From: the human T2T-CHM13v2.0 reference genome, Homo sapiens
Assembly: GCF_009914755.1 (NCBI RefSeq)
Contig: NC_060928.1
Direction: 5' to 3' (one strand)
DNA length: 64,000 bases
A program made the position numbers and the translations under genes. The notes under the pieces were generated by a model. That model searched no databases. It saw only the letters and a program-made list of their open reading frames with translations, and was not told the DNA's origin. The first letter of the stretch is position 1. Each line of letters starts with the position of its first letter. Below are positions 28,534-56,081 of this stretch, piece after piece.

Positions 28534-28673
28534 GTGTATTTGTGCTGATGGATTTGAAGGAGAAAATTGTGAAGTCAACGTTGATGATTGTGAAGATAAT
28601 GACTGTGAAAATAATTCTACATGTGTCGATGGCATTAATAACTACACATGCCTTTGCCCACCTGAGTATACAG
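28534..28673 (+). CDS. SLIT2: SLIT2 coding exon (~29), EGF2 end and most of EGF3
   Basis: ttcag|G TGT ... ACA G|gtaca; 140 nt; [46 protein letters not shown]. Confidence 0.97.

Positions 28674-30381: not shown

Positions 30382-30425
<44 letters not shown>
30382..30425. repeat. (TA)n microsatellite
   Basis: TA run with one TG interruption. Confidence 0.9.
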
Positions 30426-32896
30426 TTCCTGATGAAAACCTAGGCTTTGGAGCACAACTGCAATCAGGTTCTTATGTGTCTTTTTGACAATAAAATTTCT
30501 AGAAGGTGGTTGAGGACTCTTGAGTTGGTTTGGAGGAGTCCTCCTGCTTTGACTTTAGATTTGCTATTCCTTATTCTTATCCATTTCTTTTGAGTCTTTG
30601 TCTCACCTGCTCACCCTTCATTTCCCCAGCTCCCTCCCTACACCTGCTCCTCTTGAACACATGTTTTCTCCTATTCTAAGTGTCAGTTCAGAGCAGTTTC
30701 CTTGGAGAAGTGTTATGAAGCCTCACTTCCCCAACTATGTCAGATCTCTTTCTTTGAAACATATCATAAATACCTAAAGCTTAGCCAAACCATTTTTTAG
30801 CCAAAATGTGACATCTATAAAAGCTGTCATCTGGGAACTTGCCATGAGTATCTGTCAAGAGCCATTTGGCTCTCCACAAGAACTGGGACTGTTTTAGTCT
30901 TTTTACTTATAACTATTGCAAATGTCAGTTTGCCTTAATTTGGGCAAAGAATCAACAAAAATACTAAACAGAAAGTGCATGGCGTACAGAACATGAAGAT
31001 ATGACCATTTTATCTTTGGAATGGGTCTTGTGGGCCATGAAGAGTTTGACAATTTGGCATGAGAGAAGGTATCTAAATGGGGCAAATGTATAACTCATCT
31101 ATTAATTGTAGTATTTTTGTGCACACATGAAATGAGCTCATTTACAAAATTTCTAACAACCATCTGCGGATTTTGAAATCATTGACACATAAGTGACCTT
31201 TAATTATGGGGAAGTATGAATGAGGCTCTAGAGTTTTATATCCTACTTCATCCAAGTCTGCAGTTAAGGAGGAATTTTCTTATAATGTGATTATATGGTT
31301 TTAAATTTGAGTTTGGAATCTGATTAATGAGCATGAGATCTGGGAGCAGAAGCCCTGCTATGCTCAGGGAATATAATAGTGTTGTCAGTGTTTAAAAATC
31401 ATCCTAGTAACAAGTTGATTTTTCCTTTGAAAATTTTTTATTCTATATCCCGAAAGCATACAATGAGAAGTGAACTCTGTTTAATAAGAACAAATAATGA
31501 CTTACAGAAAAAAAGCTTGTAAATTATTATGGTGACAGTTTTTGTATTTGACACCTATGTCAAGAGTCAGAACGGACATTATGTCAATGGAAACAAATTC
31601 AGAGATCTGAGAGCAATCTGACAGAGAAGTTATGATGTGATGAACAGACTACAAAACGTGACTAGAAATATTTAAAATAAAATGAGCCACCAATGGGGAA
31701 TTTATTAAACATTGTTTAAGCCCTATGTGACCAAAATATCACAGTAAGTAGTTACTGATTTGTTAGAGGAGAAAATTCTCTGCTCTTTCCTGCTCCAGGG
31801 ATTGACAGCATGAATTGTAAGGACAAGTACTGTTTTTCTGTTATTTAAATATTGCTGTAACTTCACCACCCTAGTCACCAAAACCATTCTCCATATACTC
31901 CAGTTATCATCTGTGCTTCCAGTTGTGTAATGCATGACTGCCGATTACTAGTATATTTTAGGTAAGATTAACTTTTGAAAAGTTGAATTCACTATGAATC
32001 TAAATTAACATCCCTATACTATTAAGAAAGTAGGACTTCAGAATTGTTAAACAAATAATTTTAAAATTAAATTTAAGGTTTTAATTGTAGCTTGAGAGAA
32101 TTTTGTTGATTTTGATTTTTTGTTTGGTTATTTTTTTAAAATCATGATCATCTTCTTTCTAAAGACAAGACATTTCTTGGAGCTAAATTTCCAAGGAATT
32201 CCTGAAATAACATAAACCTAACACCTATGCAAATAAAAACTATAAATGTGGCACCCCTGTTTTTTAAAAAAATGGACACTTTTTTTAGGCTGTAGTGTTA
32301 ACTTAGGTGTTTAATTCAAAAATGTGCTTTTGTATATTTCCCAACAGTCAGAACCCTGGATCTGCTGTATCAAGACTGTGTGTCTTAATTAACTTTTATT
32401 CTTACAGGACCACATACAAGTATGACACAGTTGATCACATTTTAAGCCCTTCTTTCACTTAATGGGATTACTTAAATTCCATAAAGTGAACATCTCCATG
32501 CAGATTGGGTGTGTAAAGCCTTAGAACACATTTTGTGGAAAATATTCAGACCACTTTAAATTTTCCATTGTGTACCCATTTTCTCTTTGTTTTCCGAATC
32601 TCTGACGCCCATGCACAAGCCATTCAGTGTCCATCTTAAACAGTAAAACTGCTGGTTGTTCCATCACCTGGTTTAGACGCAGACCTCTAGCTCCCTGTGA
32701 TGGCATTTACCTTTTGCCTCATTTTCTCCATGTTTGTGCGTGTGGCCCGGCTGTAGGTAAGAAATCCAAGCCTTGCTTCAGCTTGCTCGCCCACCCCTGC
32801 TTCTCTGTTGTGAACGCTGCGCATTGGCTTCCTGTGCTCTGCTGTTGTATTGCAATGTAAAAAGTCTTTTGTCTCTTCTGTCTTTGTCGCTGCCAG

Positions 32897-32923
32897 CTGC
32901 TAATCTGAATGAGGTGGAAAAAG
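32897..32923 (+). CDS. SLIT2: SLIT2 alternative 27-nt microexon inserting AANLNEVEK into EGF3
   Basis: pyrimidine tract 32865-32890 + tgccag acceptor, AAG|gttagt donor; phase 1-1 matches flanking exons, no stop. The peptide resembles a 9-aa Slit2 insert I recall from vertebrate isoforms (unverified). Confidence 0.75.
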
Positions 32924-33488
32924 GTTAGTTGCCTTTTAAGTCTATTATGATTTTCATTTTAGTCTCCCTCTTTCTTGTAAAGTTACATAGATTTCACTGC
33001 GGGTACACAGTAAAAAGGAATGTTGACAAAATATAAAATCTGAAAACAATATGCCAAATCAGTCATTCAGATGTTTAATCTATGCATCGCTATGACAAAC
33101 AGTATAAAATGGGCCTCTGAAATGCAATTTATCTATTGTTAGAAGACAATGAATAGAAACTTTTTGAGTGGGAAGAAGGGGTGGCTAGAATAAGGGACTA
33201 ATATAAATTTTTTTAATTTTCTACTTGTCTATATTCTTTCACTTTTTAAATATATCACAAACATATTATTTTTGGAATGAAAAACATAGGTTATTTAGTA
33301 CTGTAGATAAGGCTGTAGATAGAAAAATTTTTAAGTAAGACTATTCCCATAACTTTAAGCAAATATCTTTAGTAACATGTAACATGAAAAATATTTGAAG
33401 GTGTATACATTTATTGAAACACTTTATGAAATAAATATTATAAAGCCCAAGAAGTTGACTTATAAATTTGTGTTATAGGATACCGTGA

Positions 33489-48960: not shown

Positions 48961-49307
48961 GTCTATGCTATATATCAAGAAAAAAAATCCAAAATAAACA
49001 ACGCCATTGAAAAGCATTCAGATTTCCTTTTCCTAATTCCCATAGTATATTCTGAGGGTGCTCATATTAGTCACAGATCACAATAGTCCTGTTGTCCAAA
49101 ATCACAACACTACTTAGCAGCAGACTCAGAATTGGATAATGGACCACCTGGTTCCATGCCTTGTGGCTTTTGTTTTGGGTTTTTTGCTTTGTTTTGTTTT
49201 AAATCACAAGCTGCCCTAACCTCTAAGACCCATGACAATGACACAGTCTGCTGGCAGGAAGCCTGTTGACCTTTTTCTATGAGCTAACACTGTTTGCCCT
49301 GTTGCAG

Positions 49308-49401
49308 GTGAGTTGTGTGAGGAGAAGCTGGACTTCTGTGCCCAGGACCTGAACCCCTGCCAGCACGATTCAAAGTGCATCCTAACTCCAAAGGGATTCA
49401 A
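49308..49401 (+). CDS. SLIT2: SLIT2 coding exon (~30), EGF3 end and EGF4
   Basis: gttgcag|GT GAG ... TTC AA|gtaag; 94 nt; [32 protein letters not shown]. Confidence 0.97.
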
Positions 49402-49543
49402 GTAAGTCAAAAGCTACCTTTTTGCTCACAGTCAGGGTAGGGGACCCATTATTTTAGGAGCCCTTCTCCTCCTTCATCCTTAGCTTCACACCTCTGCTCA
49501 GGATTAAAGGGACCTATTCACTAGTATCAGTGACATTTTTTAA

Positions 49544-49868
<325 letters not shown>

Positions 49869-52800
49869 CCAGACTTTTTGTTTAGTACACTAAAGAAAAA
49901 TGAAAAAGTGTTTCCTTTTCATCCATGATTTTTTTTGTGAAGTCACCTAAGGCAATGAGCAGCCTTTGAAAATGCTTACTTAAATTTATTTGAAGGCCCA
50001 ACCGGTGACATTTGTAATGTCTTCTATGTGCTTCATTGTCTGAAGGTAAGTCTGTGGTAAAATAGAGAATTTGACTTTAATGTAATTGAAGATGTTACGG
50101 TCTGAAACAATGATTGGACTATCCAAGGTGAGAAAGATAGAGTGACCATATATCTCAGGCTGCCCCAGGGAGTCCCAGGCTATGCCTGTGATGATCACTG
50201 TAGTTATTGATAGTGTCTCTTCCAACTTAAATATTTTTTGCATGGGGTGACAAAGCATTATAATCCCGCTAAGTGTACTCCCTTAAGTGAACACAGAACT
50301 TCAAAAAACACTTCCTTTTTCCTCCCCAGCAATATTCCTGAAATATGTTTGCTATGAAATTACGTGATTTCTTTGCCACCATCCTGTAATATTTTAAGGG
50401 TCTTTCAACAGCAACTTCTCTTTTTAGAGCTGGCAGTAGTTTAGAGATCATCTAGTCTTCATTTAAACATGAGGAAACCATGGCCCGGAGAGGTTAGTTG
50501 ACTGTCCAGAGATCTTAAGGTTATTTATTGGCAGAGCTAGAGCTAGGATTTATACTTACCAGTTGGGTGATTTTTCTACTATGTGTTACCTATAAGAAAT
50601 TTTATAGTTTATTAACATTACAGTTGGTATTGTATAGCAAATAGGCTGGATTCTTAGGAATTACACAGTCGGGTACAGGGGTTGAGCTGTGCTTTCATCA
50701 GACAGCTAGCAAATAGCATTATCTGTTCCTTCAAGCAATATTTATTGAGTGCCTGCCATGGCCACAGCACATGGTAATAATACCATCTTATGATTTTGTA
50801 GTCCTTTATAGCTATTCACCTTCACTTAATTCATCTTCTTAGAGAAATGACCCAAGCTCAATTGCCATAGAATTCAGGGAATTAACAATTACACAGGTCG
50901 GGATGAATTTTATAAGAGAAGATGGAATTTGAGCTGGATTGCTAAGATATTTGTACTTACCGAACAGATCATCAGATATTTTAAGTCGGGTGGGAGAGTG
51001 GGGTCAGAATCGCCAGATCCCCACTGCTTTTCAAATATCAATCTAAATTAAATATTTATTCTCAAGCTTTCTTTTGACAATGTGCTTTTGCTTTAATTTG
51101 GTTTAAAATCCAAAAATGTAGAATATGTAGGTACAGTTGTAGCACCTGCTAATTCCCTACAATGTCTTTTTGAAAAAGGAAAGAATAAATTTGATTCTAT
51201 TTTGCATTATATTTTAGTTTACAACCCTAGGCAAAAACCCAGTGTTATTCCATTTTCACTTTATACAAAACTTTACATTATATTTTATTCAACCAAACAC
51301 TGTAGGTAAGTTGTTTTTAGTCTTCATATCAATGATGCGCTCACAATTTAATTTGGCAAATTGAAAACACATCACTTACATAATAAATATCATTTCTTAG
51401 AGAAATTAGCTAGTAAGGAAAGTTTTCCAGAACTGCTCATCTGCTGAACAGATGTCACAGTACTTTGTGTATTGTAAGTATAAGATAAAGTATTAGTAAG
51501 ACTTAACTGAAACTATTAGAAAGTGAGTTTGTCTGCAAAAAGACTAATCCTTAATTAAATATCTCCTCTCGCCATCAAATAAATTAGACACTCTTAAAAG
51601 TGCATTTTGCTGCATTATGGACTAACTCATTTGGAAACCCACTGTTTTCCATTATAGTTTGTAAGCTCGTTTCATAGCTGTATGTAGGTAGTTTAGCAGA
51701 AAACGGTTAGGTCAGTGTGTGTGCTGTTACTCCCGACATTGTGGGAAAGGTAGCTGTGGAAAGAAAATAGACGTAAAAATCAAATTATGTGAAGCTGCTA
51801 AAGAAAATCTCTACTGACAAATGTTGTTTAGACAAGTTATGCTATGCTACTTCAACTTCATTTTCTTATTACTAAGCTAACAGAGCTGGTTTTACTTTTA
51901 TTGCTTTATTATATACCTCATAAATCTCCCAAATTGCTTTGAGATATTTTTAGACTATGATATGCCATAAGCAGTATTTTCAAACCTGCATCTTACATAG
52001 CCAGCTTTGGGCTTCTAAACAGTGTATTTTATATTCTTTGCTTCTTCCTCTCTCCTTGTCAGATAATAGAGTTGAAGGAATGTGATAGGTTTTATTGATA
52101 ATACAAACTCAGGAATTCTTATTTAAATTTTTCTTTCTGTTTTGAAACTCAGTCTGAGGAGCAAAAGAAAGACAAAAATGTTGGACATAATGTAACTCCA
52201 AGCTCTAATGGTCTTGAAAAATAGTATTTGGAGAGAAGGGAATATAAAATAGCTCTTAGACAGCCGCTATGGTGGATGTGTTGTTCTCTTATCTTTCACT
52301 TTGATTTCTTTTTTCAGATAAATAATTCAGAGTGTTTCAAAGCATTTCTTCTTTTTTTTAATGCTTGGCACTTCAACAGCTCTGCTCACATTAACATTGA
52401 TGGAAGTTCTCTTCTCGGGCCTTGTCCATCTCTTTGAGAATGTATATGGCCACTTAGAGTCTATTTAACTTCAGACTTGTTGTTTACTTTGCTTTGCTAT
52501 GATTTAGCATTAAAACCAACTGGCTGCAAAGCAAGCATGCTTATGCAGTGAGCTCATTTTATTTCTTAATTCATACATGCAGAGCTGAAAGTCTGTTTGC
52601 TACTCTTAGAGGCTATATACTCCCATTTGTTTTAATTCTTCCGCTCTCCAGCAACTCTCAAATCCTGATTTAGCATTTTCAGACAAAACCTTAGGCATTC
52701 AGTAATGCCACATTCACTTGGGTGTTTTTAATTATCCTTACTTCAAATCCTAATAGCTTTGAAATAGAAAAGTGGATAATTAATACAGACTAAACCATAA

Positions 52801-53009
52801 AAGCTTTTATAGAATTATAAAGACTATATAGAGAATTATTTTAAAAACCAGCCATTTATAGAACGTGCATTATATATAAAAACTATACTAATTAATTTAC
52901 AGATGGATGCGTTTAATCTTTAAATAAACCTGTGAGGTGGAATTATATACGTGTTAAAGATGAGGAAAATAACACTTACAGAGATTAAGTAATTTAGTCA
53001 GTATTATAT

Positions 53010-53460
53010 ATACTTTATGCTAAGTGAAATAGGCCAGACATAGTAAGACAAATACCGGATGATCTCACCTATATGTGGAATTTTAAAAAGTCAAACTTAT
53101 AGAAAAAGAGAGTACAAGAGTGGTTACCAGGAATTGGGGTGGGGAAAATGGGAAGATGTTGGTCAGTGGCACAAATTTTCAGTTACAAGATGAATAATAA
53201 GTTCTAGAGATCTAATATCACAGCATGGTCACTATAGTTCATACTGTATTATATACTTGAAATTTGCTCAGAGAGCAGATCTGAAATATTTTCACCACAA
53301 AAGGAAAAGGGTAACTATGGGAGGTGATGGATATGTTAATTAGCTTGACTGTGGTAATTATTTCACAATGTATGTATGTATAAAACATTACCATGTACAT
53401 CTTTAAAATATAAAGATTTTATTTTTCAATTATACCTCAGTAAATCTAGAATAAAATAAA
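53010..53460 (+). mobile_element. L1MA/MB 3' end fragment
   Basis: tatgctaagtgaaataggccagaca...ggtaactatgggaggtgatggatatgttaattagcttgactgtggtaattatttcacaatg. Confidence 0.8.
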
Positions 53461-53520
53461 GTTGATAACATACAATTAAGAATGAAGCCGGGGTACAAAC
53501 ACAGTTCTGTAAAACCTGAA

Positions 53521-54078
53521 TTCTGCAAAGCCTGAATTCTGCAGAGCTAAGTTATAGTTTTCTCATATATACACACATATATATACACATATATACATAC
53601 ACTGCTACATACACAATACATATGTGTGTATGTATATGTATATACACATGTACATACATATACACACACATACATATGTATGTGTGTATATATGTGTATA
53701 TATGTACATATGTACATATTCTGCAAAGCCTGAATTCTGCAGAGCTAAGTTATACTTTTCTCATATATACACATATATATACACATGTGCATATATATAC
53801 ATATATACACACATACATATGTATGTGTGTATATATGTATGTACATGTGTGTATATACATATGTATGTATGTGTGTATATATGTATATGTATGTACATGT
53901 GTATATACATATACATATACATACACACATATGTATGTGTGTATGTATATGTGTGTATATATATATATGTGTGTGTATATATGAGAAAACTATGACCTAG
54001 CTCTGCAGAATTCAGGCTTTGCAGTTATGTGTATATGTATGTATATATGTATGTGTATGTGTGTGTATATATATATAT
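53521..54078. repeat. Compound (TA/CA/TG)n array with three copies of a ~45-bp unique unit, two direct and one inverted
   Basis: ctgcaaagcctgaattctgcagagctaagttata(g/c)ttttctcat at 53523 and 53721; reverse complement ending at 54024. Confidence 0.92.
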
Positions 54079-54407
54079 AAAGTCAGTGAACCCTCTCTTA
54101 AACTCAAATCAAAAACACTCTTGGAAGCCAATGTGTAAGCCTAATAAATCACAACAGGAGAGTGTTGAGGAAAAGGTGGAGGGTAGAGGGAGGCTTCCAG
54201 AAGACCCCTCCTCATAGATGGCCATACCTGTAGGGATTCTATGGTCCCCTATAGGTCCACAGTGCAGTTTGAAAACTGCTGCACGTGCCACACTGCCTTT
54301 CTTCATGCAGCTATAAAATCCTGCATCCTTGGTATCATAACTAGAGATCCCAGTGGTCAGCACTAGAGAAGTACAGGTTTAAAGGGAGCCTGTGGAATTA
54401 ATTATTC

Positions 54408-54665
54408 AACAGCATAGTGCAGTGGTTAGAAATACAAGCTTTCTTGTTAGATTGCTTGAGTTTGATTCCTGGCTGTGGCACTTAGAAGTTGAGTGTTTGG
54501 GGGCAAAGTACTTCACCTCTTTGTTCCTTAGTCTCCTCACCTGTAGAGTGGGCAAAGTAATACCACGAATATCACAGGACTGTGGAGAGGATTCAGTGAA
54601 TCCATAGAAGCCACATGGTTAGAGCAGGGCCAGAGGAAGTGCTCAGTGAATGTCAGCTGTATTAT
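54408..54665 (+). mobile_element. MIR
   Basis: agcatagtgcagtggttaga...gggcaaagtacttcacctctttgttccttagtctcctcacctgtaga. Confidence 0.7.
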
Positions 54666-55363
54666 TACTCCTGGTTCCTCACCATCAATGCAGCCAAGAC
54701 CCTTTACCACCATGGTGAACAGGCTGAAAACTGTCCGTGGGATTGGCCCCGTGAATTTTCTATCAGTTCTTCTATCCTAACCCATTATGTCAGTCCCGTT
54801 CTTCTATAATGAGTATCTGGATTCATTGTGAATTAGGGTATTTAATATTAATATATTTGCTTTTCTTAAAATAATACCTTGTTCTGATGTATCTAGTCTC
54901 TATTGTAAAATTAAAAATGTTAATCTTTTTTTAAATATGTTTAATATTTCCAGTAAATTTTACAACATAGCACTTTTATAATCTCAATGATCAAATGGAT
55001 TAGGCCAAACTGAAAATATAGGGCACTGTAAGCAAACAAAATGGGGAAAAAGAAAGGAAGGAAGAGGGAGGAGAGTGGGTGGGAGGGAGTGACCCTGCTA
55101 CAATTACCCTGTTCTTATTTGGGCTGTGGATGTTCACTATCATCAAGGAGATAAAATCACTATTTCTCTGGTAGATCACAGTGATAGAACATGGAACATA
55201 CTGCAGAACAGTTCGATTTTCTAGGTATCCATTAATGTGGGGGCTCTATGAGCCTATTCTAAATAAGTATTTTAAAGATGGTGCCATTGTGTCTAGATAA
55301 AATGCATTGTTTACTTATTTTGGCTCAGTTGGGTTTGAAACCATTACCTGCTTGTTCCAACAG

Positions 55364-55501: not shown

Positions 55502-55509
55502 GTAAAAGC

Positions 55510-55965
55510 AGAAATGAATAAGACCTAGTGTTCAATAAGACCTAGCACAACAGGGTGACTATAGTCAGTAATAGTGTAATCGTACATTTTAAAATAACTA
55601 AAAGAGTATAACTGGATTGTTTGTAACACAAGGATAAATACTTGAGGGGATGGATACCCCATTTAACATGATGTGATTATTATGCATTACATGCCTGTAT
55701 CAAAATACCTCATTTACCCCATAAATATATACACTTACTAGGTACCCACAAAAATTAAAATAAAAAAATTTTAAGACAAAAAACGTAGAACTTACAGAAG
55801 CAAAGAGTAGAATGAGGGTTACCAAAGAGGAGGACAGAGGGATGGTGTTTGGGGAGATGTTGGTCAAAGGGTACAAAATGTCATTTAGACAGGATGAGTA
55901 AGTTTGGAATATCTGTTGTACAGCACAGTGATGATTTTGTTTAATAGTTAAGAATACTTGAAAAC
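55510..55965 (+). mobile_element. Two adjacent L1MA 3' fragments filling most of the intron
   Basis: cacaacagggtgactatagtc...gaggggatggataccccattt...ctaggtacccacaaaaattaaaa, then gcaaagagtagaatgagggttacc...gttggtcaaagggtacaaa. Confidence 0.8.
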
Positions 55966-56081
55966 TGGAAAAACAAGGAAGTGCACATATATAATATACA
56001 GTTATGTTATACAGCTCTCAATTCAGATTGGCAATTAAGTAAAATCGTATTAACTAATTTTTTTTTCTCCTTATTCTTCAG

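What the first reader, a model, noticed from the sequence alone, without database searches (positions are those of the whole stretch)
32691..32923. Composite splice switch in the EGF3 intron: AG|GTAAGA recursive-splice-type acceptor sharing a donor with the microexon
Seen: a 64-nt AG-free zone (32691-32754) with a TTTAC branch candidate (32706-32710) and a pyrimidine tract ends in ctgtag|GTAAGA at 32756/32757. The upstream exon ends ...ACAG, so splicing to 32757 would regenerate CAG|GTAAGA, a near-consensus donor stronger than the native CAG|GTACAA. If 32757-32923 (167 nt) were kept as an exon, it would carry an in-frame TAA (32858-32860) 63 nt before its donor. Established: vertebrate recursive-splicing (RS) sites are a 3'ss followed by a 5'ss, defined by an RS-exon that usually has a premature stop. 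Inference: one ~230-nt element could give zero-length re-splicing (canonical SLIT2), the 27-nt microexon, or an NMD/truncating exon. Caveats: known RS sites are mostly in far longer introns, and AGGTAAG occurs by chance elsewhere in this window.
Basis: partly seen in the sequence, partly recalled or inferred. Interest (0 to 1): 0.8.

Follow-up and report, generated by a model that had tools for sequence, protein, structure and literature searches.

The report
Putative recursive splice site beside SLIT2 microexon
A conserved acceptor-plus-donor motif sits 140 bases upstream of the known brain-specific 27-base SLIT2 microexon; it could in principle act as a recursive splice site, but it is already in a published list of computational candidates and no RNA evidence seen here shows it is used.

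Summary
These are the AG-free zone 32691-32754, TTTAC, ctgtAG|GTAAGA at 32756/32757, the 27-nt exon 32897-32923 and the in-frame TAA 63 nt before its donor.

The 27-nt exon best matches the published nSR100/SRRM4-dependent Slit2 microexon, which adds 9 aa. The AG|GT site is not new. Zhang et al. 2018, S1 Table, lists one putative recursive site in this 20.6-kb intron, with 3'ss MaxEnt 5.66 and PhastCons 1.0. Its distance to the intron's 3' end matches 32757.

After splicing, the site would regenerate CAG|GTAAGA (8/9 consensus). That is stronger than the native donor (6/9) and the microexon donor (7/9).

No transcript evidence was found. SLIT2 is absent from Zhang's junction-supported list. This site is absent from a 900-sample brain catalogue that does list another SLIT2 site. 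SLIT2 is absent from the held lariat-study supplements.

The site lies inside the microexon's UGC-rich, CpG-retaining flank, so its conservation is not specific to splicing at this junction.

Verdict: a real, sequence-competent site whose use is unproven. It is most likely a flank element with at most low-level use. The composite switch remains a cheap, testable hypothesis.

The parts
28534..28673 (+). Upstream coding exon (end of EGF2 and most of EGF3). It ends ...ACAG in phase 1 and has the weak native donor CAG|GTACAA.
   Evidence: U1 pairing -7.1 kcal/mol, 6/9 consensus.
32691..32754 (+). 64-nt AG-free zone. It holds the branch candidates TTTAC (A at 32709, -47) and CTCAT (A at 32721, -35) and a pyrimidine tract that is 80% Y at -23..-52.
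   Evidence: The zone is A-poor (5 of 64), which largely explains the lack of AG.
32755..32762 (+). AG|GTAAGA: juxtaposed 3' and 5' splice-site motif, the putative recursive site.
   Evidence: Listed in Zhang 2018 S1 Table (hg19 chr4:20574716; 3'ss 5.66; PhastCons 1). It is the only one of 70 eligible AGGT sites in this intron that appears in that table.
32757..32896 (+). 140-nt UGC-rich upstream flank of the microexon.
   Evidence: 8 TGC against 1.9 expected; only 0.5% of 140-nt windows in the intron reach 8. CpG obs/exp is 0.45 for 32560-32930 and 0.43 for 32691-32923, against 0.21 for the intron.
32858..32860 (+). In-frame TAA if 32757-32923 is kept as an exon.
   Evidence: It lies 63 nt upstream of the donor.
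32897..32923 (+). 27-nt microexon inserting AANLNEVEK between Cys5 and Cys6 of the third EGF module.
   Evidence: Of 89 open 27-nt AG..GT candidates in 13 introns, it is the only one with a pyrimidine tract of at least 0.7 and a donor of at least 6/9. It matches the published nSR100-dependent 9-aa Slit2 microexon.
32924..32929 (+). Microexon donor GTTAGT, shared with the hypothetical 167-nt exon.
   Evidence: -6.7 kcal/mol, 7/9.
49308..49401 (+). Downstream constitutive exon starting GTGAGT. The canonical junction regenerates CAG|GTGAGT.
   Evidence: 9/9 consensus, -12.2 kcal/mol.

Best explanation
The element is the conserved upstream regulatory flank of the known SRRM4/nSR100-dependent 27-nt SLIT2 microexon. 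That flank contains a sequence-competent recursive-type site, TGTAG|GTAAGA.

I think the site's conservation comes mainly from the microexon's control region: UGC motifs for SRRM4 and CU-rich tracts. I think splicing at 32756/32757 is at most a minor side reaction.

When that side reaction happens, the regenerated strong donor CAG|GTAAGA would outcompete the weak GTTAGT donor and be re-spliced to exon 49308, giving a product that is invisible in mRNA. Less often the 167-nt exon would be retained and degraded by NMD.

Shown: the sequence anatomy, the relative donor strengths, the UGC enrichment, the published 3'ss score and conservation, and the published SRRM4 dependence of a 9-aa Slit2 microexon.

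Inferred: that this 27-nt exon is that microexon, that the conservation is due to the flank, and that usage is low.
For: [quoted passage not shown] 32897-32923 is the only one of 89 candidates with good splice signals.
- Flank character: 8 TGC in the 140 nt between the site and the microexon, against 1.9 expected (top 0.5% of windows). GC is 47% against 37% and CpG obs/exp is 0.45 against 0.21. PhastCons is 1.0.
- Weak proximal pyrimidine tract (55% Y) and a modest 3'ss score of 5.66, just above Zhang's cut-off of 5.
- No transcript support. SLIT2 occurs only in Zhang's S1 table and in none of the other five held files, which include the junction-read, sawtooth and lariat tables. The Bass and Salzberg supplement (3,022 CHESS and 4,667 GENCODE sites from 900 brain total-RNA samples) has one SLIT2 row, at chr4:20280878 in another intron. 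The three held Hoppe 2023 lariat files have no SLIT2. The main text of the mouse-brain study PMC8797253 has no 'Slit'.
- The paralogues give no support. The SLIT1 intron here is about 190 nt with no microexon. The 3.6-kb SLIT3 intron shows only chance matches.
Against: The site passes every sequence-level criterion used for vertebrate recursive sites.
- It is the only one of 70 eligible AGGT sites in the intron to pass Zhang's filters.
- Its regenerated donor (8/9, -11.0 kcal/mol) ranks in the top 0.1% of the 1041 intronic GT sites, and it is stronger than the downstream donor, as the competition model requires.
- The long AG-free zone with two consensus branch candidates is what a used 3'ss needs.

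The negative data are weak.
- SLIT2 is missing from Zhang's table of expressed genes (S5), so those cells probably did not express it.
- The brain catalogue used adult tissue, strict thresholds (at least 40 reads, at least 28 samples) and a SPLAM pre-filter whose outcome for this site is unknown.
- I could not read the Sibley 2015 or Wan 2021 tables.
- I had no vertebrate alignment with which to separate site-specific conservation from flank conservation.
Confidence: 0.55

Rival explanations
1. A true recursive splice site acting. The 167-nt unit 32757-32923 is exon-defined and joined to exon 28534-28673. The regenerated CAG|GTAAGA then re-splices in one of two ways. It goes either to exon 49308, giving canonical mRNA, or to the microexon 3'ss 140 nt away, giving microexon inclusion. 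Failure to re-splice leaves an NMD substrate.
For: - All sequence hallmarks are present.
- The published 3'ss score is 5.66 and PhastCons is 1.0.
- The regenerated donor is stronger than the donor of the recursive-splicing exon, as in 67% of Zhang's sites.
- The native donor is weak, so a donor upgrade before the remaining 16.5 kb is plausible.
- SLIT2 is an axon-guidance gene, a class enriched for recursive sites.
- Recent catalogues include introns of this size.
Against: - There is no junction, sawtooth or lariat support in any list I could read.
- Conservation is explained equally well by the microexon flank.
- SRRM4 microexons are mostly spliced downstream-intron-first.
- EJC deposition tends to repress regenerated donors (PMC6224609, passages). 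That would favour a wasteful NMD product.
- 36,870 sites pass the same filters but only 342 had junction support.
Confidence: 0.2
2. A regulated alternative 3' splice site. Use of 32757 instead of 32897 gives a 167-nt poison exon (TAA at 32858) that lowers SLIT2 output by AS-NMD, without any re-splicing.
For: There is an in-frame stop 63 nt before the donor, and the length shifts the frame. The conserved block and the shared donor fit conserved poison exons in general (general knowledge). The 3'ss is usable.
Against: The regenerated donor is much stronger than GTTAGT, so retention should be rare. My literature searches found no SLIT2 poison or cryptic exon (the only listed paper holding SLIT2 with one of these terms mentions it for NOVA binding). 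The proximal pyrimidine tract is weak.
Confidence: 0.1
3. The GTAAGA is not spliced at all. It acts as an intronic U1-binding pseudo-donor that modulates recognition of the microexon 140 nt downstream. Alternatively it is the donor of an upstream pseudo-exon such as 32691-32756.
For: In its genomic context TAG|GTAAGA pairs well with U1 (-9.4 kcal/mol, top 0.9% of intronic GT sites). It lies in the conserved flank. By eye, 32691-32756 is 66 nt and open in phase 1.
Against: No data bear on U1 occupancy. The acceptor at 32690 has a purine-rich upstream sequence. An open 22-codon frame is expected by chance about a third of the time.
Confidence: 0.1

Closest known systems
Vertebrate recursive splice sites with recursive-splicing exons (Sibley et al. 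2015; Zhang et al. 2018; Blazquez et al. 2018)
   Same: YAG|GTAAG motif. High conservation. A downstream recursive-splicing exon with a premature stop. A regenerated donor stronger than that exon's donor. A host gene in axon guidance.
   Different: There is no junction, sawtooth or lariat evidence. The intron is 20.6 kb and is not the first intron, whereas mouse-brain sites lie in introns over 51 kb and in the first two introns. The donor of the recursive-splicing exon here belongs to a known coding microexon.
SRRM4/nSR100-dependent neural microexons (Quesnel-Vallieres et al. 2015; Irimia et al. 2014, recalled)
   Same: A 27-nt frame-preserving exon with a UGC-rich, pyrimidine-rich upstream flank, including a UGC at -6 from the 3'ss. 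[quoted passage not shown]
   Different: The paper places the insertion in the 'fifth EGF domain', whereas my cysteine-pattern count gives the third. The microexon donor is weak by U1 pairing, whereas microexon donors are described as strong.
Drosophila Ubx microexons mI/mII removed by re-splicing (Hatton et al. 1998; cited, details recalled)
   Same: Recursive re-splicing is coupled to the choice of whether a microexon is included.
   Different: In Ubx the microexon itself starts with the regenerated donor. Here the microexon starts with CTGCTA, and the AG|GT lies 140 nt upstream of it.
EJC-repressed annotated recursive-splicing exons and cryptic microexons (Blazquez et al. 2018)
   Same: A two-step decision is taken on the part-spliced transcript. 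Exon 49308-49401 fits this class, since AG|GTGAGT regenerates a 9/9 donor.
   Different: In that class the cryptic microexon is the first 15 nt or fewer of a longer exon and is produced by an internal donor. Here the microexon is the last 27 nt and would need a second acceptor.

Membership tests
Vertebrate recursive splice site (Sibley/Zhang type) | Juxtaposed AG|GT with an extended donor match after ligation to the upstream exon | tested here: met
   TGTAG|GTAAGA. Regenerated CAG|GTAAGA is 8/9 consensus and -11.0 kcal/mol.
Vertebrate recursive splice site (Sibley/Zhang type) | Usable 3' splice site (MaxEnt at least 5, branch point 20-50 nt upstream) | tested here: met
   Published MaxEnt is 5.66 (Zhang S1); I did not recompute it. 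yUnAy candidates lie at -47 and -35. The proximal pyrimidine tract is only 55% Y.
Vertebrate recursive splice site (Sibley/Zhang type) | Evolutionary conservation of the AGGT | tested here: inconclusive
   Published 100-way PhastCons is 1.0. The site lies in the conserved flank of a microexon, and no alignment was available to separate the two.
Vertebrate recursive splice site (Sibley/Zhang type) | Downstream recursive-splicing exon with its own, weaker donor and a premature stop | tested here: met
   32757-32923, TAA at 32858, donor GTTAGT at -6.7 against -11.0 kcal/mol.
Vertebrate recursive splice site (Sibley/Zhang type) | Junction reads from the upstream exon to the site, a sawtooth, or lariats | not testable with these tools
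   No RNA-seq was available here. Published lists read: SLIT2 is absent from Zhang S2-S4. Only another SLIT2 intron appears in Bass and Salzberg. SLIT2 is absent from the held Hoppe 2023 files. Sibley 2015 and Wan 2021 are not held.
Vertebrate recursive splice site (Sibley/Zhang type) | Long host intron | tested here: inconclusive
   The intron is 20,634 nt. That is above Zhang's 5-kb cut-off and within the range of newer catalogues (medians of about 4-10 kb). It is below the >51 kb reported for mouse brain.
SRRM4-dependent neural microexon with its regulatory flank | Frame-preserving exon of 51 nt or less with canonical splice sites | tested here: met
   27 nt, CAG|...AAG|GTTAGT, open in phase 1. 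It is the sole good candidate of 89.
SRRM4-dependent neural microexon with its regulatory flank | UGC motifs enriched upstream of the 3'ss | tested here: met
   8 TGC in 140 nt against 1.9 expected, including one at -6.
SRRM4-dependent neural microexon with its regulatory flank | Experimentally shown SRRM4 dependence | not testable with these tools
   It was shown for a mouse Slit2 9-aa microexon (PMC4387716). Identity with 32897-32923 is inferred from length and location. The EGF numbering differs.

The most novel reading that the evidence does not exclude
Two-step inclusion of a neural microexon through a recursive site. The 27-nt exon is too short for exon definition, so the spliceosome first defines the 167-nt unit 32757-32923 and joins it to the upstream exon. 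The regenerated strong donor CAG|GTAAGA then chooses between two acceptors. One is the microexon acceptor 140 nt away, an intron-defined and SRRM4/UGC-promoted choice that includes the microexon. The other is exon 49308, 16.5 kb away, which skips it. The NMD-prone 167-nt exon is the failure product.
Probability: 0.08. Interest if true: 0.7.

Novelty: already known. Interest (0 to 1): 0.33.

Why it matters
SLIT2 is a central axon-guidance cue. Its 9-aa microexon is among the most SRRM4-dependent exons in mouse brain, and its function is unknown.

If the upstream AG|GTAAGA were really used, it would link two fields that are usually treated separately: recursive splicing and neural microexon control. 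It would also offer a mechanistic answer to how a 27-nt exon escapes the exon-definition size limit.

As things stand the site is one of tens of thousands of computational candidates with no RNA support, so the practical value is a cheap, well-defined test in public RNA-seq. My full-text searches for SLIT2 with 'recursive splicing' and for 'microexon' with 'recursive splicing' found no paper making this link. Supplements I could not open may still bear on it.

Tried and rejected
1. RNA structure. Folding 32680-32935 gave z = 0.23, and 112 of 200 shuffles folded at least as well. A predicted helix between 32702-32725 and 32906-32932 (-20.3 kcal/mol) ranks only 54 of 4096 intron windows. The best duplex in the upstream 400 nt was matched by 35 of 200 shuffles. 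Rejected as chance.
2. Known RNA families. Rfam gave 0 matches at E up to 1 over 32300-33200.
3. Repeat or transposon origin. The 401-nt region has a single match in the whole assembly.
4. Paralogue comparison. The SLIT1 intron is about 190 nt with no microexon. The SLIT3 intron (3.6 kb) gave only chance matches of 16 nt or less, and its only AGGTRAG hits in the fetched stretch are exon boundaries. This is uninformative about the site's function.
5. A microexon in the EGF5 intron, to explain the paper's 'fifth EGF'. There are 0 open 27-nt candidates in 55502-56081.
6. Literature sources I could not use.
   - Sibley 2015 and Wan 2021 are not held.
   - The Blazquez supplements held as text are only 36 k characters and contain no SLIT2.
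   - The held Insplico supplement has no SLIT2.
   - One of the two Quesnel-Vallieres supplement files could not be searched.
7. MaxEntScan and SpliceAI scores could not be computed here. I used U1 duplex energy and consensus counts instead.
Full report
**Observation**

The sequence is as described.
- 32691-32754 contains no AG; the previous AG is at 32689.
- TTTAC is at 32706-32710.
- The motif ctgtAG|GTAAGA has its junction at 32756/32757.
- A 27-nt open exon CTGCTAAT...GGAAAAAG lies at 32897-32923, flanked by ...gctgccAG and GTTAGT.
- TAA is at 32858-32860.

The upstream exon 28534-28673 ends ...TAT ACA G in phase 1. Reading from 32757, the TAA is therefore in frame and lies 63 nt before the donor. 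167 nt also shifts the frame.

**Chance**

AGGTAAG is common on the sense strand: 12 copies, of which 2 are annotated donors and 6 lie in this intron. The antisense strand has 3, and the Markov expectation is 4.4 +/- 2.1.

A gap of 64 nt or more without AG precedes only 63 of 4146 AGs in the window. 2 of the 14 AGGTRAG sites have a gap of 60 nt or more (P about 0.03). However, the zone has only 5 A in 64 nt, so its AG-free state is largely compositional (P about 0.31).

**Splice-site quality**

There are two yUnAy branch candidates, TTTAC with its A at -47 and CTCAT with its A at -35. The pyrimidine tract is 80% Y at -23..-52, but the 20 nt next to the AG are only 55% Y.

| Donor | U1 pairing (kcal/mol) | Consensus match |
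|---|---|---|
| Regenerated CAG\|GTAAGA | -11.0 | 8/9 |
| Native CAG\|GTACAA | -7.1 | 6/9 |
| Microexon donor AAG\|GTTAGT | -6.7 | 7/9 |

The regenerated donor is in the top 0.1% of the 1041 intronic GT sites, and the annotated donors in the window average -7.8 kcal/mol. MaxEnt and SpliceAI could not be run.

**What the 27-nt exon is**

Quesnel-Vallieres et al. [quoted passage not shown] I scanned all 13 introns of the window with the correct phases. There are 89 open 27-nt AG...GT candidates. Only 32897-32923 has a pyrimidine tract of at least 0.7 and a donor of at least 6/9. The intron inside EGF5 has no candidate at all.

By cysteine pattern, the insertion (AANLNEVEK) falls between Cys5 and Cys6 of the third EGF module. 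I treat the identity of the exon with the published microexon as a strong inference, not a demonstration.

The 140 nt between the AG|GT and the microexon hold 8 TGC against 1.9 expected (top 0.5% of windows), including one at -6. The block 32560-32930 has GC 47% against 37% and CpG obs/exp 0.45 against 0.21. It is among the most CpG-retaining 300-nt windows of the intron. The windows that score as high or higher fall in stretches the hub annotation lists as masked repeats. This is the expected look of an SRRM4 microexon's regulatory flank.

**The site is already catalogued**

S1 Table of Zhang et al. 2018 (PMC6110456; methods passages, table rows) lists 36,870 'putative RS sites'. These are AGGT sites in introns of at least 5 kb, more than 2 kb from annotated splice sites, with 3'ss MaxEnt of at least 5 and 100-way PhastCons of at least 0.5.

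One row reads: SLIT2, chr4, intron 20570627-20591266 (20,639 nt), site 20574716, 4089 from the 5' end, 16550 from the 3' end, score 5.66, conservation 1.

In the window the intron is 20,634 nt. The distance from 32757 to the intron end is 16,551 bases inclusive, and the upstream part is 4,083 nt. The only other AGGTs within 200 nt are inside the microexon or at its donor, and those cannot score 5.66 as acceptors. The 5-6 nt difference upstream can sit in the (AT)n tract at 30382-30424.

The published row is therefore this site, and it is the only one of 70 eligible AGGTs in the intron that passed. Because the site lies in the microexon flank, that conservation is not specific to splicing at this junction.

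**Transcript evidence**

None was found.
- In Zhang's six held files, SLIT2 occurs only in S1. It is not in S2 (342 sites with at least 3 junction reads), S3 (sawtooth) or S4 (lariats). SLIT2 is also missing from S5, the table of expressed genes, so this negative is probably uninformative.
- Bass and Salzberg 2026 (PMC13622621; methods, results and supplement legend read) screened all AGGTs in introns of at least 200 bp, using 900 adult brain total-RNA samples. The held supplement has a single SLIT2 row, at GRCh38 chr4:20280878, far upstream. Coordinate prefixes around the expected position of this site found nothing (the offset was recalled). So SLIT2 pre-mRNA was sampled deeply enough to score one site, but not this one. 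I do not know whether this site passed their SPLAM filter.
- The held Hoppe 2023 lariat files have no SLIT2.
- The main text of the mouse nuclear RNA study PMC8797253 has no 'Slit', and its sites lie in introns over 51 kb.
- Gohr et al. 2023 (PMC10250204) find that most SRRM4-dependent microexons are spliced downstream-intron-first.

**Other checks**

These were negative or neutral.
- No Rfam family.
- No unusual folding (z = 0.23).
- A tempting helix between the branch region and the microexon donor is not better than chance.
- The region is single-copy in the assembly.
- SLIT1 has a roughly 190-nt intron here with no microexon, and the 3.6-kb SLIT3 intron shows no related sequence.

**Reading**

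The most likely account (0.55) is that this is the conserved control region of the SLIT2 microexon, which happens to contain, or tolerates, a competent AG|GTAAGA. Any splicing there is a minor side path, hidden by re-splicing from the strong regenerated donor or cleared by NMD.

| Account | Confidence |
|---|---|
| Conserved microexon flank; splicing at the site minor at most | 0.55 |
| Plain poison-exon acceptor | about 0.1 |
| Unspliced U1-binding pseudo-donor | about 0.1 |

The boldest reading not excluded is two-step microexon inclusion by way of the 167-nt unit and a 140-nt mini-intron. I give it 0.08.

**Comparison with known systems**

The element works like a Sibley-type recursive site on paper. 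All the sequence features I tested are met. The defining RNA intermediates are untested here and absent from the lists I could read.

It differs from Drosophila Ubx, where the microexon itself starts with the donor. It also differs from the cryptic microexons of Blazquez et al., which are made by an internal donor near the exon start.

**Novelty and score**

The microexon and the putative site are both in print. The link between them was not found in my full-text searches. I rate the finding 'already known' with moderate-low interest (0.33). Its main value is a precise, inexpensive test.

Noticed in passing
window 49306-49313 and exon 49308-49401; L012 (SLIT3) and L013 (SLIT1): The constitutive exon after this intron itself begins AG|GTGAGT. 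The canonical junction therefore regenerates a perfect donor, CAG|GTGAGT (9/9, -12.2 kcal/mol), and AAG|GTGAGT after the microexon. This is the annotated recursive-splicing-exon class that the EJC is reported to protect. Skipping the 94-nt exon would shift the frame. SLIT3 has the same arrangement (CAG|GTGAGC); SLIT1 does not (CAG|GAAAGG). The motif encodes Gly-Glu, so coding constraint may explain it.
   Followed up: partly
window 51304-51312: A second recursive-type motif, CTGTAG|GTAAGT, has a 61-nt AG-free zone. It lies in the next intron (49402-55363), 1.9 kb from the upstream exon, so Zhang's 2-kb rule would have excluded it from their table.
   Followed up: no
whole window: AGGTAAG shows a strand asymmetry: 12 on the sense strand (only 2 are annotated donors) against 3 on the antisense strand, with a Markov expectation of 4.4 +/- 2.1.
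   Followed up: no
window 32897-32923 against PMC4387716: The paper places the 9-aa Slit2 insertion in the 'fifth EGF domain'. Counting six-cysteine modules in the window's coding sequence places 32897-32923 in the third EGF, between Cys5 and Cys6.
   Followed up: partly
window 32702-32725 and 32906-32932: A predicted long-range helix (-20.3 kcal/mol) pairs the branch and pyrimidine region of the upstream acceptor with the 3' half of the microexon plus its donor. It appears in both the MFE and the centroid structures but is not better than shuffled or intron-wide controls.
   Followed up: yes
window 30382-30424: There is an (AT)n microsatellite in the upstream part of the intron. The hg19 intron in Zhang's table is 5 nt longer than in this assembly, and this tract is a likely place for the difference.
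   Followed up: partly
outside the window (SLIT2 upstream introns): Zhang 2018 S1 lists 8 further putative recursive sites in SLIT2: 7 in the 199-kb intron and 1 in an 18.6-kb intron. Bass and Salzberg 2026 list one read-supported site at GRCh38 chr4:20280878.
   Followed up: no
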